Below, piece by piece: positions 1 to 34,851 of a stretch of DNA of 34,851 bases. The position numbers and the translations under genes are program-made. Origin of the DNA: a virus (Duplodnaviria > Caudoviricetes); IMG/VR virus record IMGVR_UViG_3300016665_000368, positions 1-34,851 of that record; one strand, given 5' to 3'. Under the pieces are notes generated by a model. It searched no databases. It was not told the origin of the DNA and worked only from the letters and a program-made list of their open reading frames with translations. Position 1 is the first letter of the stretch, and each line of letters begins with the position of its first letter.

Positions 1-33
1 TCCCTTCTCGCTGTGCGTGCAGGGTTGGGGATA

Positions 34-245
34 TGTGGATAACCCTGTGGACAACCCCGGTCCTGTGGACAACCTTGTGTATAAACCTGTGGGCAACCGG
101 GCAACCTGTGGATGACCGAAGCCCTGTGGATGACGCTGTGCAAAACCTGTGGAAAAACAGGATCATCAAAAAAACCGGCAGGCTGTGGAAAACCTGCCGG
201 CTGTGGAAAACCAAACAACCGTCCGAACCTCTACTCTGTGGAAAA
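34..245 (-). promoter_or_regulatory. Array of 12 co-oriented DnaA-box-like 9-mers (left part of the junction-spanning array)
   Basis: TGTGGATAA 34, TGTGGACAA 46 and 64, TGTGTATAA 76, TGTGGGCAA 88, TGTGGATGA 107 and 125, TGTGCAAAA 137, TGTGGAAAA 148, 184, 202 and 237. These are reverse complements of TTWTNCACA or the actinobacterial TTGTCCACA, with at most 1 mismatch. Confidence 0.85.
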
Positions 246-267
246 CTCCCGACGAATCGAGGCACCT

Positions 268-693
268 ATGCCACCAGGCTCCAAACCGAAACCTCCTGGC
301 AAGTCCGACCAGCGTGAAACCGTTTTCAAATGGAACCTCGCCGAGCATGAAGGCTGGCAACACGGCAAAGTCCCACCCTGCCCGAAAGGGTTGTCAGCTC
401 ACGGCCAGAAGGCGTGGCGGACTTGGATGAACGCATGGTGGGCCTGCTTTTACACACCGGACGATCTGCCAGGGCTCGAGCTTCTCGCCTTGCTCTACGA
501 CAAAGTCCTCTTGGATCAGATCGACGTTTCGAAGATCACACCGCTCCTCGACCGGTACGGCATCACACCGAAGGCCCGTCAGGATTTACGCTGGGCTCAG
601 GTTCCGGCGAAACCTGCCGAACAGACCGTCTCCCCGAATCTTCAAGATGAAATTGCTGAGCGTCGCCAGCAACGTCGAAGCAATCTGGCCTGA
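268..693 (+). CDS. terS: Terminase small subunit
   Basis: ATG 268 with GAGG upstream (the ORF track start at 112 runs through the repeat array). MPPGSKPKP start, W..W motif and 'YGITPKARQDLRW' resemble actinophage TerS. Lies directly upstream of TerL. Confidence 0.75.
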   Translation: MPPGSKPKPPGKSDQRETVFKWNLAEHEGWQHGKVPPCPKGLSAHGQKAWRTWMNAWWACFYTPDDLPGLELLALLYDKVLLDQIDVSKITPLLDRYGITPKARQDLRWAQVPAKPAEQTVSPNLQDEIAERRQQRRSNLA

Positions 694-698
694 GTTCT

Positions 699-2324
699 AT
701 GCCTCTGACCCGACTTGTAGCGCCAGCAGAATGGCCGACCCTTGGCTGGCAGGTCATCGACTGGACAGAGCAGTACCTGTGTCACGGCCCTGGCGACATC
801 CAAGGCGAACCTCTGGTTTGGGACGAGGAGTTCTGCCAAATCATCCTCGACTGCTACCGGCTGTTTCCGAAAGGCCATGAGAACGAAGGCCGAAGGGTGG
901 TCTCCTATTTCGGCATTTCTATGCCGAAGGGTCGCGCCAAATCGGAGTTCGCCGGCGCTTTGGTTTGTGCGGAACTTCTTGGCCCTGTCCGTTTCGACGG
1001 TTGGGACGCCAATGGCGAACCGGTCGGAAAACCTGTCACCTATCCGTTCATCCGCCCACTGGCAACGGAGGAAGGCCAGACAGGCAACACCTACGGCAAC
1101 GTTCAAACGATGCTCGAGCACGCGCGCGAACTGTTCCCAACGGAATGGCAGTTCAATCAGCTCGACATCGGTTCGACGAGGACGCTTCTTGGGAAAGGTG
1201 GCCGGTTGGGTGAGGTTCGCCCTTCGACCGCCGGTGCCGCTTCTAAAGATGGTGGCAAGGAGTCGTTCGCTGTCGTCGACGAACCCCACCTCTACTACCT
1301 GCCGGAACTTCGCCAGATGCACGCCATGGTCCGACGAAACACTCGGAAGCGGAAGATTGCTCAGCCGTGGATGTTGGCGACGACAACGATGTTTCAACCC
1401 GGCCAGCATTCGGTCGCCGAGGATTTGTATGACGAGGCGGAGAAACTGATGGAGCAGCAGAAACGGTCGTTTGGTTTCTGCTGGCACCATCGCGAGGGTT
1501 CAATCACCGAAGATGTCTGGGATGACGATGTGGCCCAGTTGGCGTCTCTTCGAGAGGCGTATGGGCCGGCCGCTGATTGGATGGATTTGGCCGGAATGGT
1601 TGAGCATGAGATACGCGCGCCCGGATCGGTGAAAGCCGAGAATGCCAGGTATTTTCACAATCTTCGCTGGAAGGGTGAGCAGCGTGCCATTGACCCCGAC
1701 AAGTGGGACGCGTTGGCCGCTCCGTCTTTGAACCCTCAAGGTGGGGAGTTCATCGCTATCGGCTTCGACGGTTCGGATCGTGGCGAACACGCCGACGACA
1801 CTGTCCTTGTCGGCTGGGTTCTCACAGAGAAACCTCATTTGTTTTTGATCGATCGTTGGCGCCGTCCGGAGTTCGCCGGCCGTGAATATCGGGTTCCTCG
1901 CGAGGAGATCCGTGAGAAGGTTTCTGAGCTGCGCGAAACGTTCGAGGTTCGCCGGTTCGCTTGTGATCCTCCTGGTTGGCGTGAGGAGATTGATTCGTGG
2001 GACAAGGAGTTCGGCGAACGCTATGGGGAACCGGTTGTGGTGGAAGTGTTGACGAACCGTCCGACTCGAATGGGTCCGGCTATCGACCGGTTTCTCGAGG
2101 CGATTGACGAGCAGTCGTTCACTCATGACGGTTCGCCGGAATTGCGCGAGTATGCGTTGAATGCGTTGTTGACGAAATCGAAAGGTCGAACCGATCTACC
2201 AGCCGTGGCGAAGCCTACGATTGATGCAAAGATTGACGGTTTAGTAGCCGCCATACTCTCCTACGACGAGGTTGCCAAGATGTCCCCCGAACAGCCGGTC
2301 GCCCCGTTCGCGCTTCTCGCATGA
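699..2324 (+). CDS. terL: Terminase large subunit
   Basis: Walker A-like 'MPKGRAKSE', Walker B 'FAVVDEPH', nuclease 'IGFDGS..D.T' and C-terminal 'KIDGLVAA'. Confidence 0.95.
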   Translation: MPLTRLVAPAEWPTLGWQVIDWTEQYLCHGPGDIQGEPLVWDEEFCQIILDCYRLFPKGHENEGRRVVSYFGISMPKGRAKSEFAGALVCAELLGPVRFDGWDANGEPVGKPVTYPFIRPLATEEGQTGNTYGNVQTMLEHARELFPTEWQFNQLDIGSTRTLLGKGGRLGEVRPSTAGAASKDGGKESFAVVDEPHLYYLPELRQMHAMVRRNTRKRKIAQPWMLATTTMFQPGQHSVAEDLYDEAEKLMEQQKRSFGFCWHHREGSITEDVWDDDVAQLASLREAYGPAADWMDLAGMVEHEIRAPGSVKAENARYFHNLRWKGEQRAIDPDKWDALAAPSLNPQGGEFIAIGFDGSDRGEHADDTVLVGWVLTEKPHLFLIDRWRRPEFAGREYRVPREEIREKVSELRETFEVRRFACDPPGWREEIDSWDKEFGERYGEPVVVEVLTNRPTRMGPAIDRFLEAIDEQSFTHDGSPELREYALNALLTKSKGRTDLPAVAKPTIDAKIDGLVAAILSYDEVAKMSPEQPVAPFALLA

Positions 2325-27103: not shown

Positions 27104-27444
27104 CCGAACACCCTGGAACCCTCGACGACTGGACCGACCGGGCCGCATGCAAAGGCAAAACCGAACTGTTCTTCATCCAACGAGGCGACAACGTCTCCGT
27201 CTCCAAAGCAAAACAAATCTGCCAAAACTGTCCCGTTATCGAAGAATGCCGAAACTACGTTCTCTACCATCCGGAACGTTTCGGAATATGGGCCGGGATG
27301 ACAGAGAAAGACCGACGCCACTACCGCCTCGAGCATGGCATCAAACTCCCAGCCGCCCAACACGGAACCCGAACACGCTACAACTCCGGCTGCCGTTGTT
27401 ATGACTGCCGATCGACCTACAACCGGATCGTTCGCACCCGATGA
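27100..27444 (+). CDS. whiB: WhiB-family transcription factor with extra C-terminal HGT..Y..GCRC..CR domain
   Basis: 'W..RAAC....LFF', 'AK.IC.NCPV..EC' and 'FGIWAGMTE.DR'. GTG at 27100. Confidence 0.92.
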   Translation: MTEHPGTLDDWTDRAACKGKTELFFIQRGDNVSVSKAKQICQNCPVIEECRNYVLYHPERFGIWAGMTEKDRRHYRLEHGIKLPAAQHGTRTRYNSGCRCYDCRSTYNRIVRTR

Positions 27445-31942: not shown

Positions 31943-32136
31943 CCCCCGACGACATACTCCAAGCACTCAAAAACCAAAGGTTCTGGCCCAACCCCGACAC
32001 CCTCGACGAAGACCTCGCCAACGCCATCACCCTCATCCAGCAGCTCTGCGAAACCAACGCCAAATACATCGCCAACATGATGGAAGTCATGGCAGCCGTC
32101 GAAGACATCAACGAAGAAATCGCAAAACTCACATGA
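31939..32136 (+). CDS. Hypothetical helical protein
   Basis: 65 aa with AAGGAG RBS and ATGA overlaps. Confidence 0.6.
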   Translation: MTPDDILQALKNQRFWPNPDTLDEDLANAITLIQQLCETNAKYIANMMEVMAAVEDINEEIAKLT

Positions 32137-34328
32137 CAACTCCTCTCCCGACAGCAACCGAATCAACACTCTCCTCGGCAATCGACTACGCCCAACGAGG
32201 TTGGCGAATCGTCCCAATCCGACCAGGCGAAAAACGGCCGGCACTTTCTAACTGGCAGAACATCGCCACATCACACCTCGACACCGTCTACGAATGGTTC
32301 GAAGGCCCCTACAAAGACCACGGAATCGGCATCGCCACCGGCCCCGAATCCGGCATCTTCGTCCTCGACATCGACATCGCCGAAACCAAAGCAGGCGACG
32401 AAACCCTCGCCGACCTCGAACACACCCACGGACGCCTCCCAGACACACTCACAGTCCTCACCGGCTCCGGAGGCTGGCACTTCTACTACCGCTACCCACA
32501 AAACCTCGAAATCCGCAACGACGCCGGCCGACGACTCGGACCAGGACTCGACATTCGAGGAACAGGCGGACAAGTCGTCGCACCCCCAACCATCCACCCC
32601 AACGGACACCCCTACGAATGGGACCAAGGATGCGACACCATCGCCGACGCCCCACCCTGGCTCCTCCAACTCCTCACCACACGCGACGAACCCCCCACCA
32701 AACCAGCGTCAACCCACACCAACATCATCGACGCCAACGCCGACCGCGACTCCATAGCCGCCCGATACAACGACACCACCAACTGGACACAACTACTCAC
32801 CGACGACGGCTGGACCCTCACAACCACACTCCCCAGCGGAGAAACCCAATGGACCCGACCAGGTAAAAACCCCAGCGAAGGAATCTCCGCCACAGTCGGC
32901 CACGAAGGCCGCGACATCCTCAACGTCTTCACCTCCTCCATCCCATGGCTCCCAGAAGGCGCCTACTCACGCTTCGGCTACTACGCCTGCCGACACCACC
33001 AAGGAGACCGCTCAAAAGCAGCCACACACCTCCACAACATCACAGCAAGAACCACCGAAAACTATTTCGAAACCCAACTCATCACCCCAACCCCAACCCT
33101 CGAGGCTGACCCCGCCGACCGCATCGAACTCGCCCACCTAGTCAACTGGGAAAAACTCTGGACCGACGACCGCCCAGAAGAAGAATGGATAGCCGAACCA
33201 ATCATCCCCAAAGGCCGATCCATCGCCCTCTACGCCCCAGCCAAAGCCGGCAAATCCACCATCACCCTCGCCATCGTCGCAGCAGTAGCAACAGGCGGCC
33301 GCATCCTCGGACAAACCCGAGCCACCCCCACCAGCTGCCTCTACCTCGACTACGAAATGACCGAAGACGACCTCATCGAACGACTCACCGGACTCGGCTA
33401 CGGACCCCAAGACAACCTCACCAACCTCCACTACGCCCTACTCCCATCACTCCCACCACTCGACACACCAGAAGGCGCCCACGCCATCCTCAACCTCGTC
33501 GACCAAACAGCCGCCCAACTCGTAGTAGTCGACACATTCGGCCGAGCCGTCGAAGGCGACGAAGACAAAGCCGACACCGTCCGCAACTTCTACCGACACA
33601 CCGGCCTCAGCTTGAAAGCTCGAGGCGTCGCAGTCCTCCGCACAGACCACTCAGGCAAAGACACCGGAAAAGGAATGCGAGGGTCAAGCGCCAAAGCCGA
33701 CGACGTCGACATCGTCTGGCAACTCACCCGAACCGACACCAGCCAAGGCGAAGGCGTACGCCTCAACCGCACCCACTCCCGAATCTCCTGGGTACCCCAA
33801 GAAATCAAAATCCGACGAGTCGAAACCGACAACGGCCACGACTACACCATCGACGCCCAAGACCAAACATGGCCCAACGGAACCCGACAAGACGCCGACC
33901 TACTCGACACCCTCCAACTGCCACACAACATCGGCTTCAACGCAGCCAAAACAGCAGTCCGAGAATCCGGACACAAAATGCGAGACGCCCGCATCCGAAC
34001 CGCCCTCAAGTTCAGAAAACAAGCCGCCAACTCCGAAGCCAACCTCCGACTCACAGCCGGAATCACCGACAATTCACAAGCGCACAAGCGCGTCGGACGC
34101 GCCGAAAACCAGCCGGACGCGCAACGCGTCCCAAAAACCCCGGACGCGCACCCCGAAAAACGGGACGCGCCGGCCTCTAAACAAAAACCCCACGTCACAG
34201 GCTCAGAAAAACGGGACGCGATGAACCCCAATCGGGACGCGATAGTCGACGGTCCAACGGGACGCGTTCCCCCCTATAGGGGGACGCACCCGGACTCACC
34301 TACAAACACACCATCCCCACTGCTTTAA
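32133..34328 (+). CDS. Bifunctional primase-polymerase (Prim-Pol) fused to AAA_25/RepA-like helicase
   Basis: 'GW..VP..PG.KRP', 'IGIATG', 'VLDID', 'TGSGG.H.YY' and 'DIRG.GG.VVAPPTIH'; Walker A 'APAKAGKS', Walker B 'LVVVDT', 'DHSGK' and 'RGSSA'. Confidence 0.93.
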   Translation: MTTPLPTATESTLSSAIDYAQRGWRIVPIRPGEKRPALSNWQNIATSHLDTVYEWFEGPYKDHGIGIATGPESGIFVLDIDIAETKAGDETLADLEHTHGRLPDTLTVLTGSGGWHFYYRYPQNLEIRNDAGRRLGPGLDIRGTGGQVVAPPTIHPNGHPYEWDQGCDTIADAPPWLLQLLTTRDEPPTKPASTHTNIIDANADRDSIAARYNDTTNWTQLLTDDGWTLTTTLPSGETQWTRPGKNPSEGISATVGHEGRDILNVFTSSIPWLPEGAYSRFGYYACRHHQGDRSKAATHLHNITARTTENYFETQLITPTPTLEADPADRIELAHLVNWEKLWTDDRPEEEWIAEPIIPKGRSIALYAPAKAGKSTITLAIVAAVATGGRILGQTRATPTSCLYLDYEMTEDDLIERLTGLGYGPQDNLTNLHYALLPSLPPLDTPEGAHAILNLVDQTAAQLVVVDTFGRAVEGDEDKADTVRNFYRHTGLSLKARGVAVLRTDHSGKDTGKGMRGSSAKADDVDIVWQLTRTDTSQGEGVRLNRTHSRISWVPQEIKIRRVETDNGHDYTIDAQDQTWPNGTRQDADLLDTLQLPHNIGFNAAKTAVRESGHKMRDARIRTALKFRKQAANSEANLRLTAGITDNSQAHKRVGRAENQPDAQRVPKTPDAHPEKRDAPASKQKPHVTGSEKRDAMNPNRDAIVDGPTGRVPPYRGTHPDSPTNTPSPLL
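34088..34298 (+). repeat. GGACGCG iteron-like cluster with CCCCCTATAGGGGG palindrome (putative phage origin)
   Basis: GGACGCG at 34095, 34115, 34142, 34163, 34214, 34235 and 34260; inverted copy at 34125-34131; variants at 34282 and 34292; palindrome at 34270-34283. Confidence 0.7.
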
Positions 34329-34350
34329 ATCACCACCCTCGAGGAACCCC

Positions 34351-34695
34351 ATGGCACGACGACGCTGCGAAAAATGCGGAGGCTGGGTCACCCCACCCAA
34401 CCCATGCCAACCATGCCGAACCAAATACGAACGGGCACGCTCGAGGGGCAGAGGCACCAGGGAGGAGTACGCCGGAGCATGGCGCTACAACTCCCAACAA
34501 CTCCGAAACAACTGGATCATCCTTCACGGCTACCACTGCCCAGGCTGGAACATCGAAGGATGGACAGGCCGGCCGGCCCACCCAGCCACCGACCTAGTCG
34601 TCGACCACGACCTCGGAGTCATGTGCCGCAGCTGCAACAGCCACAAAGCCGCAACCTACGACCGGAGGAGGGATACCCCCAGGCTCGAGGACTAA
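34351..34695 (+). CDS. HNH endonuclease (terminase-associated)
   Basis: 'CEKC', 'CQPC', 'HCPG', 'LVVDH' and 'MCRSCNSHK'; last gene before terS on the circle. Confidence 0.85.
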   Translation: MARRRCEKCGGWVTPPNPCQPCRTKYERARSRGRGTREEYAGAWRYNSQQLRNNWIILHGYHCPGWNIEGWTGRPAHPATDLVVDHDLGVMCRSCNSHKAATYDRRRDTPRLED

Positions 34696-34827
34696 CCCAC
34701 AGACTTAGCCACAACCTTTTCCACACCTAGCCTCCGAGAGGCCCAGTTATCCACAACGCAGTTGTCCCCAACCCTGTCCACAGGTTGTCCACAGCCTGGG
34801 GATAAGGGGGGAGGGGCCTGTGGACAA
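34693..34827. promoter_or_regulatory. DnaA-box-like array, right-end part (7 forward, then 2 reverse)
   Basis: TAACCCACA 34693 (weak), TTAGCCACA 34705, TTTTCCACA 34717, TTATCCACA 34747, TTGTCCCCA 34762, CTGTCCACA 34774 and TTGTCCACA 34785; reverse TGGGGATAA 34797 and TGTGGACAA 34819. Confidence 0.85.
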
Positions 34828-34851
34828 CGGGGCCCTCGGAGGCTCCTCAAC

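What the first reader, a model, noticed from the sequence alone, without database searches (positions are those of the whole stretch)
34..245. Dense DnaA-box array at the packaging end: candidate phage DnaA sponge or oriC mimic
Seen: 12 co-oriented DnaA-box 9-mers in ~210 bp upstream of terS (starts 34, 46, 64, 76, 88, 107, 125, 137, 148, 184, 202, 237), with recurring 11-12 and 18-19 bp steps. Nine more sit at the other end (34693-34827), giving ~21 boxes across the HNH-terS interval if the ends join. Established: TTWTNCACA and TTGTCCACA are DnaA boxes, and non-origin clusters (E. coli datA, Bacillus DnaA-box clusters) restrain initiation by binding DnaA. Inference: no dnaA gene was recognised, the phage has its own primase-helicase with separate iterons, and there is no clear AT-rich unwinding element. 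As genome copies accumulate, the array could titrate host DnaA and shut down host chromosome initiation using DNA alone. Alternatives are host-DnaA-assisted phage replication, or DnaA control of late transcription or packaging.
Basis: partly seen in the sequence, partly recalled or inferred. Interest (0 to 1): 0.9.

Follow-up and report, generated by a model that had tools for sequence, protein, structure and literature searches.

The report
Host DnaA boxes straddling phage ends
An uncultured virus of actinobacteria carries 21 close matches to the binding site of DnaA, the bacterial protein that starts chromosome copying, split between its two genome ends; these likely capture host DnaA and would let the virus hold its packaging and structural genes shut until its own copies outnumber that protein.

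Summary
The array is real: 12 DnaA boxes at 34-245 and 9 at 34693-34827. The window ends are the physical genome ends. Eight related contigs and one independent assembly join them through a 10-nt core, a predicted 3' cos overhang, so this is not mis-joined host oriC. All 17 informative close relatives carry the array, with box number and spacing varying. The sister clade (TerL 81-86%) has the same end layout with 0-2 boxes. A different end motif, shared family-wide, is the better TerS site. No DnaA-trio run was found, and the phage has its own iterons and primase-helicase. Best reading: an optional host-DnaA capture array, probably acting as a copy-number gate on late genes and cos, with host DnaA drained as copies accumulate. 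Binding is likely (~0.85); the purpose is unproven (~0.4). Similar arrays are widespread in phages (about 1700 stretches against 110 for a control) and sit beside cos in cultured Arthrobacter phages, which makes this testable. Precedent: the T5 injection-stop boxes. This scan has reported such arrays on other DNA.

The parts
34..245 (-). Left-end half-array: 12 DnaA-type boxes, all with TTWTNCACA/TTGTCCACA on the template strand of terS; last box ends 22 bp before the terS ATG
   Evidence: 7-11 boxes at this place in 17 of 17 informative relatives; last-box-to-ATG gap 21-24 bp in relatives
34693..34793 (+). Right-end half-array: 7 boxes pointing towards the genome end, starting at the HNH stop codon
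34797..34827 (-). Two boxes of opposite orientation flanking the G-tract; orientation switch at 34794-34796, where the sister clade has a single convergent pair
34806..34818 (+). G-tract about 35-45 bp before the right end, kept in box-less relatives (candidate packaging element, inferred)
   Evidence: L269; L440, L445
34851..34851 (.). Physical right end; a 10-nt core (CCCTGCGCCC) that is absent from the window links it to position 2: predicted 3' cos overhang lost in library end repair
2..24 (+). Physical left end and family-wide end motif (TCGC.GT.CGTA.G from base 7 of the end): best candidate for the TerS site (inferred from position and conservation)
   Evidence: 27 of 61 distinct contig starts have TCG at exactly bases 7-9, at most 2 at any other offset; HK97 analogy
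173..202 (-). 12-bp hairpin around box 184 followed by a T-run on the - strand (terminator-like for antisense RNA); strong only in the window's sub-lineage
   Evidence: z below -4 in 3 of 8 sequences; no signal in the other 5
268..693 (+). Small terminase subunit (141 aa)
   Evidence: Pfam Terminase_7 E 1.2e-4, below its cut-off; position before terL
699..2324 (+). Large terminase subunit; relatives are actinobacterial phages and prophages
34351..34695 (+). HNH-like protein (CxxC pairs, VDHD...CxxCNxxK), the usual cos neighbour; named from the motif, no library hit
   Evidence: no hit
32133..34328 (+). Prim-Pol plus AAA_25 primase-helicase
34095..34266 (+). GGACGCG iteron cluster in the 3' end of the primase-helicase gene: likely the phage's own origin (inferred)
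   Evidence: 8-10 copies at this place in L261, L263, L264, L266, L267, L436; none in L269, L440, L445

Best explanation
The two ends of this cos-type actinophage genome carry 21 DnaA-type boxes that likely bind the host's DnaA and would act as a copy-number gate on the late genes and the packaging site. Shown: the boxes, their split over both physical ends, their joining into one ~400-bp head-to-head array across a 10-nt core, their conservation in close relatives, and their near absence from a sister clade with the same end layout. Inferred: (1) after injection and cos closure, the single genome's array is filled by host DnaA; (2) bound DnaA hinders RNA polymerase entering terS and the structural operon, and may also shield cos from early cutting; (3) as the phage replicates from its own iteron origin, box number passes the DnaA pool, occupancy per genome falls and late expression opens; (4) the same titration starves host oriC and delays new rounds of host replication, freeing host replisome and nucleotides. 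Selection appears to act on the number of good sites, not on a fixed architecture.
For: DnaA identity: in a CACA-anchored count with no mismatch filter, position 3 is A/G/T and never C (0 of 110) and positions 1, 2, 4 are T in 85-93% (10 related sequences, not independent). Among 8 same-layout relatives 1 of 63 box columns varies, against 13 of 50 spacer columns (Fisher p 8e-5), and that one is position 3. The same variants occur beside dnaA in four genomes labelled Acidimicrobiia or Actinomycetota. No phage DnaA domain IV. Number over architecture: 13-17 boxes (1 mismatch allowed) in 8 end-spanning contigs, with changing spacing. Local gate: the left half fills the DNA between the end motif and the terS RBS (gap 21-24 bp in all; 64 bp end-to-ATG in the box-less sister clade). 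All annotated genes are on +, and no + strand terminator-like site was found from 24500 to the end or across the joined region. DnaA bound to boxes blocks transcribing polymerase (as stated in PMC10950094, passages); that TTTTCCACA on the non-coding strand is the active orientation is recalled from Schaefer and Messer 1989, of which I saw only the title. Fourteen of the 21 boxes, including all 12 before terS, have that orientation; so do the Arthrobacter phage boxes and 9 of 11 terminase-linked arrays in the survey (post hoc, p 0.065). Titration arithmetic: 13 exact boxes per phage genome against 12-74 per whole genome in five Acidimicrobiia-type genomes; plasmid-borne boxes delay initiation (PMC5835720, passages); non-origin clusters restrain initiation (PMC3245932, abstract).
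Against: No binding or expression data. No promoter could be located: the sigma-70 scan found none, not even for the early genes, so the test for terminators and read-through is weak in a high-GC actinophage. Over all surveyed arrays the orientation bias is not significant (26 against 15, p 0.12; 11 against 6 for co-directional flanks, p 0.33). A distant lineage (L316, L345, L464) has 1-2 boxes before terS in the opposite orientation. Seven right-end boxes have the other orientation. Sister phages do without the array. Only 11 of 66 independent arrays lie by terminase or HNH genes, not far above chance, and circular ssDNA Microviridae carry arrays too. The host is unknown, so its DnaA pool is unknown, and dnaA autoregulation would buffer titration.
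Confidence: 0.4

Rival explanations
1. Pure DNA sponge: position is incidental; amplified genomes soak up host DnaA to stop host chromosome initiation.
For: Variable box number and spacing; favourable arithmetic; arrays in many contexts, including Microviridae with 11 tandem perfect boxes; datA, D78 and DBC precedent; no tyrosine integrase found in 5 of 5 clade records.
Against: Does not explain why the boxes sit only at the ends and fill the terS leader while other intergenic gaps hold none. Most of datA's effect comes from IHF-dependent ATP hydrolysis, not binding. Boxes at this place also occur as only 1-4 copies (sister clade, Arthrobacter phages), too few for a strong sink.
Confidence: 0.2
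2. End capture: pre-existing host DnaA coats both naked ends at injection, protecting them from AdnAB/RecBCD-type nucleases or end sensors and bridging the halves to speed cos closure (or anchoring the DNA during entry).
For: Boxes start 33 bp from the left end and stop 24 bp from the right end; 19 of 21 point towards the ends. Boxes recur at ends in Arthrobacter phages, a T7-like terminal repeat and T5. DnaA loops separated clusters, also in Streptomyces (PMC3479198, passages). Incoming ends need protection before any phage protein is made (10.1101/866236).
Against: In H. pylori no loop formed on linear DNA. Arthrobacter phage Auxilium has boxes at the right end only. Microviridae have no ends. 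Most surveyed arrays are not by terminase genes.
Confidence: 0.17
3. Replication aid or oriC mimic: host DnaA helps open or load the nearby iteron origin, or the joined array is a second origin.
For: Iterons lie about 430 bp from the right-end half. GGACGCG iterons and the large array occur in the same lineage. Head-to-head halves with 11-12 bp steps look origin-like. DnaA assists iteron plasmids (recalled).
Against: No DnaA-trio run at the junction, while 2 of 4 host dnaA regions showed one with the same scan; the AT-richest 20-mer is 75% A+T and is mostly an A-run. Spacing to the iterons is not fixed (about 400-450 bp longer in L262 and L266). The phage has its own primase-helicase. The array has no similarity to host DNA beyond one 39-bp match in 301 genomes. 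Packaging cuts through the element.
Confidence: 0.13
4. Sites for TerS, the HNH protein or another phage protein (lambda R-site type), or DnaA as an IHF-like packaging helper.
For: They flank cos on both sides. The box-less sister TerS is only 55-60% identical, so specificity could have changed. Small phage proteins of unknown function exist.
Against: The sister clade and L269 keep the same ends without the array. A different motif at bases 7-22 is conserved family-wide, where HK97 TerS binds (15-29, PMC11331095). The same 9-mer sits beside unrelated terminase families and varies as DnaA boxes do.
Confidence: 0.08
5. Artefact or drift: host oriC mis-joined to the contig, or neutral slippage repeats.
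For: Repeats break assemblies, and tandem duplication clearly shaped the array.
Against: Continuous HNH-array-terS in 8 contigs plus one independent run; boxes conserved over spacers; no host match.
Confidence: 0.02

Closest known systems
DnaA boxes in the injection-stop (iss) region of T5-like phage terminal repeats (Davison, bioRxiv 10.1101/866236, parts 1-4 of 6 read; Heusterspreute 1987 as cited there)
   Same: Host-type boxes in non-coding phage DNA near a genome end, pairs at a 12-bp step, conserved in relatives, judged not to be the replication origin, function untested.
   Different: T5 has 7-8 boxes in fixed pairs, several kb inside a 10-kb terminal repeat, linked to two-step injection. 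Here 21 boxes of variable number lie within 245 bp of both ends of a cos phage, directly before terS, and a sister clade lacks them.
Non-origin DnaA-box clusters: B. subtilis DBCs (PMC3245932, abstract), S. coelicolor D78 and E. coli datA (PMC5835720, PMC5742627, PMC3479198, passages)
   Same: Dense boxes with no unwinding element; could lower free DnaA; some DBCs also regulate neighbouring genes.
   Different: Those are chromosomal and about one copy. This one is viral, amplifies during infection and is cut in two at packaging. No IHF-type site or DDAH activity is shown.
Actinobacterial oriC
   Same: Box variants, 11-12 bp steps, two opposed groups.
   Different: No dnaA/dnaN neighbour, no DnaA-trio run, no fixed architecture.
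DnaA transcription roadblock (E. coli asnC terminator and datA box 2; PMC10950094, passages)
   Same: Boxes in the path of polymerase, in the orientation recalled as active.
   Different: There one or a few boxes; here 12-14 in a row before a phage late operon; untested.
HK97-type cos (PMC11331095, passages)
   Same: HNH-cos-terS-terL order, 10-nt overhang, conserved motif just inside the left end.
   Different: HK97 passages read describe no DnaA array; 3' polarity here is inferred from the missing bases.

Membership tests
DnaA-box cluster | Several TTWTNCACA/TTGTCCACA 9-mers far above chance | tested here: met
DnaA-box cluster | Variation follows DnaA tolerance; boxes conserved over spacers | tested here: met
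DnaA-box cluster | Bound by DnaA | not testable with these tools
   needs EMSA, footprint or ChIP
datA/DBC-type titration locus | Lies outside an origin, no unwinding element | tested here: met
   no trio run; separate iterons; trio scan found 2 of 4 host controls only
datA/DBC-type titration locus | Lowers initiation frequency in vivo | not testable with these tools
   arithmetic only
datA/DBC-type titration locus | IHF site and DnaA-ATP hydrolysis (datA only) | not tested
   no IHF-site scan was run
Bacterial oriC | DnaA-trio or AT-rich unwinding element next to a box | tested here: not met
Bacterial oriC | Linked to dnaA/dnaN | tested here: not met
   flanked by HNH and terS; no DnaA domain
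Bacterial oriC | Autonomous replication | not testable with these tools
   needs a plasmid assay
T5 iss DnaA-box element | Fixed pairs in inverted repeats inside a long terminal repeat | tested here: not met
   no terminal repeat; fixed single ends and variable box number
T5 iss DnaA-box element | A1/A2 genes and two-step injection | not tested
   no A1/A2-like name among 51 ORFs scanned, but no directed search
Cohesive-end (HK97-like) packaging site | Fixed physical ends with a short overhang | tested here: met
   9 of 15 clade contigs begin and 4 of 6 end at the same bases; 10-nt core between them; polarity inferred
Cohesive-end (HK97-like) packaging site | HNH gene before and terS/terL after | tested here: met
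   (HNH by motif only)
TerS recognition repeats | Conserved wherever the same terminase and ends are | tested here: not met
   array absent in sister clade and L269; another motif conserved instead

The most novel reading that the evidence does not exclude
Many unrelated phages use the host's replication initiator as a DNA-only copy counter: a DnaA array, here split by the packaging cut and rebuilt only when the ends join, keeps late genes and cos closed until phage genomes outnumber DnaA, and at the same moment starves the host origin. No phage protein is needed.
Probability: 0.3. Interest if true: 0.87.

Novelty: new variant of a known kind. Interest (0 to 1): 0.6.

Why it matters
Phage DnaA boxes have been an unexplained note since the T5 injection-stop work. 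This case adds a natural control (sister phages with the same end layout and no array) and points to cultured phages of a harmless soil bacterium (Arthrobacter phages Auxilium, Seahorse and kin) with 3-4 boxes at the same place, so the question can be tested by box scrambling. If the gate or sponge is real, it is a protein-free way for phages to time late expression and halt host replication, present in well over a thousand viral contigs. It would also warn that origin-finding software can mislabel such phage arrays as origins.

Tried and rejected
Terminal repeat: none. Rfam at gathering threshold: 0 matches. Sigma-70 promoter scans: none found anywhere scanned, so no promoter is claimed. Conserved hairpin in the array: strong in 3 of 8 sequences, no signal in 5; not a general feature. 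Host assignment: WhiB matched 201 of 201 Acidimicrobiia-class genomes at 38-50% identity and the best TerL matches in bacterial genomes were 34-46%; host stays 'an actinobacterium'. Expression: two RNA-labelled runs (X17, X18) gave patchy contigs, one covering 22-359 across the array; contigs cannot show strand, start or level and may be DNA, so nothing is concluded. General orientation rule for phage arrays: not significant. General enrichment at terminase genes: 11 of 66, not clearly above chance. The left end of the box-less relative L269 is not in its record. Host-oriC capture: 1 short match in 301 genomes. Literature searches that found nothing on a cos-flanking DnaA array; the library lacks most subscription papers and no supplements were read, so a prior note cannot be excluded.

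Full report
Observation. The window is a 34,851-bp viral record with terminase, portal, capsid, tail, lysis, WhiB and a Prim-Pol/AAA_25 primase-helicase, all on the + strand. Its TerL relatives are actinobacterial phages and prophages. The twelve boxes named at 34-245 are all present on the - strand. Nine more lie at 34693-34827, seven on + and two on -. Eleven hits within one mismatch fall in 212 bp, against a maximum of 3 in 200 approximate dinucleotide shuffles of the window. Thirteen of the genome's 14 exact TTDTNCACA sites are in the arrays.

The ends are physical and they join. Of 23 close TerL relatives (89-96% identity), 17 reach far enough upstream and all 17 carry the array; the other six stop short. 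Eight contigs run unbroken from HNH through the array to terS (L007, L016, L017, L021, L024, L436, L438, L443; some are near-identical) and show a 10-nt core, CCCTGCGCCC, between the bases at which the window ends and begins. A contig from another study (run X2) matches window 33921-34851 with its bases 1-931 and window 2-333 with its bases 942-1273, a gap of exactly 10. Nine of 15 clade contigs begin at the base after the core (one of them behind what I recall as a sequencing adapter), and 4 of 6 end at the base before it. Loss of the core from both ends is what end repair of a 3' overhang gives (established practice, recalled); HK97 has a 10-nt 3' overhang with an HNH helper (PMC11331095, passages). 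So the array straddles cos, is split in the virion and is whole only in circular or concatemeric DNA. It is not host oriC: 1 of 301 Acidimicrobiia-class genomes gave a match, of 39 bp.

The sites behave like DnaA boxes. With only the CACA anchor fixed, position 3 is A, G or T and never C in 110 sites from 10 related sequences, and positions 1, 2 and 4 are mostly T. Among eight same-layout relatives, 1 of 63 box columns varies against 13 of 50 spacer columns (p 8e-5). The same variants lie beside dnaA in four actinobacterial genomes. No DnaA domain IV was found in 5 of 5 clade records, while the control rang in 12 of 14 genomes. Any DnaA reader must be the host's.

The array is optional and lineage-specific. 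On a TerL tree the array-bearing phages form one clade (100/98 support). Its sister clade (TerL 81-86%, TerS 55-60%) has the same end layout, 64 bp from end to terS start with no boxes, and a single convergent pair at the place where the window's orientation flips (L440, L445). L269 has the same right-end layout and no box. Of 193 more distant loci (56 viral, 57 metagenome, 80 bacterial-genome; 15 of the 80 metagenome loci were left out as duplicates or lacking upstream DNA) none has a tight cluster of three, though one lineage of 7 loci has 1-2 boxes before terS. A different motif is conserved family-wide: 27 of 61 distinct contig starts carry TCG at exactly bases 7-9, at most 2 at any other offset, within TCGC.GT.CGTA.G (contigs picked by eye). 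That is near where HK97 TerS binds (15-29). The boxes are therefore unlikely to be TerS sites.

It is not an oriC mimic in anatomy. No DnaA-trio run was found at the junction, while the same scan found one in 2 of 4 host dnaA regions. Box number (13-17 within one mismatch) and spacing vary. The phage has its own GGACGCG iterons at 34095-34266, at a distance from the array that varies by about 400 bp among relatives. DnaA help for that origin is not excluded.

Such arrays are common. A strict three-box pattern is held by an estimated 1700 stored viral stretches (121 fetched from 5 of 64 parts), against 110 in the whole collection for one shuffled control. Steps are 11 or 12 bp in 152 of 242 cases, whereas 212 of 220 control steps are multiples of three. 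None of 257 flanking ORFs hit a DnaA or DnaN family. Eleven of 66 independent groups lie by terminase or HNH genes, 16 in divergent gaps, and others in Microviridae. Cultured Arthrobacter phages Auxilium and Seahorse have 3-4 boxes between the HNH stop and the right end, and a T7-like Klebsiella phage has convergent boxes at its record end.

Mechanism. I commit to a titration gate (0.4; DnaA binding itself about 0.85). The left half fills the DNA between the end motif and the terS ribosome-binding site, with the last box 21-24 bp from the ATG in every relative checked. Any promoter in or upstream of the array must send polymerase through these boxes. DnaA bound to boxes impedes polymerase (PMC10950094, passages), and the orientation here is the one I recall as active from Schaefer and Messer 1989 (title only seen). 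One phage genome carries as many exact boxes as a whole high-GC Acidimicrobiia genome at the low end (13 against 12-74), so a few tens of copies would outnumber host sites. Occupancy would then fall, late genes would open and host initiation would be delayed, as with plasmid-borne boxes and chromosomal clusters (PMC5835720 passages; PMC3245932 abstract). Against it: no promoter was found; orientation bias over all arrays is not significant (26 against 15) and only suggestive near terminases (9 of 11, post hoc); one distant lineage has the other orientation; sister phages manage without; the host is unknown. Rivals are a pure sponge (0.2), end capture and circularisation (0.17), replication aid (0.13), phage-protein sites (0.08) and artefact (0.02).

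Comparison and novelty. The closest phage precedent is the set of 7-8 DnaA boxes in the T5 injection-stop region, also untested (10.1101/866236, parts 1-4 of 6 read; still called poorly understood in 10.64898/2026.01.13.699316, one passage). This array fails membership there (no long terminal repeat, no fixed pairs) and fails oriC, and it works most like a DBC/datA-type cluster. Two phage genome papers mention DnaA boxes only as software-predicted origins (PMC12484599, PMC11512268, passages). Six searches found no report of a cos-straddling array; the library is incomplete and no supplements were read. Earlier notes of this scan describe DnaA arrays in other phages, some beside terminase genes, but none on this family; they are leads, not support. 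Verdict: real, a new variant of a known but unexplained kind, valuable for its sister-clade control and cultured test systems; interest 0.6.

Noticed in passing
L025:1956-2074 (Microvirus mar31, MZ089777.1): Eleven perfect tandem TTTTCCACA boxes at an exact 11-bp period in the non-coding gap after the capsid gene of an ssDNA phage; other Microviridae also hit (L101). No paper found.
   Followed up: partly
L147:2868-2899 and L149:1891-1934 (Arthrobacter phages Auxilium, Seahorse): Three to four DnaA boxes between the HNH stop and the right genome end in cultured phages; relatives Richie, Faja, Isolde and Sakai match the same stretch.
   Followed up: partly
L150:1630-1739 (Klebsiella phage 175002, Przondovirus): Convergent DnaA boxes at the record end of a T7-like phage, present twice in some records, consistent with a terminal repeat; only a subset of T7-like phages matched.
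   Followed up: partly
L002:1-55 and L014:1-55: Two contigs from different samples carry the same 55 unrelated bases before the 10-nt cos core, although L002's own right end is the normal one: another element sharing this cos, or a repeated mis-join.
   Followed up: no
window:6843-10903: A block of four or five glycosyltransferase-like genes between capsid and head-tail genes, suggestive of virion glycosylation (recalled from mycobacteriophages).
   Followed up: no
window:29943-30848 and 27121-27444: Transglycosylase-like (resuscitation-promoting-factor type, name recalled) domain and a WhiB transcription factor in the early region.
   Followed up: no
window:25510-25605: Hairpin followed by TTGACA and an A/T-rich stretch at the late/early boundary: candidate terminator and early promoter, seen by eye, missed by the scan.
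   Followed up: no
L033, L062, L064, L057 (3-kb flanks): A group of phages with 10-12 DnaA boxes between a GP88 gene and lysis genes.
   Followed up: no
L316, L345, L464 (TerL 45%): A distant lineage has one or two TTATTCACA boxes, 11 bp apart, between the left end and terS, in the opposite orientation: apparent independent gain at the same place.
   Followed up: partly
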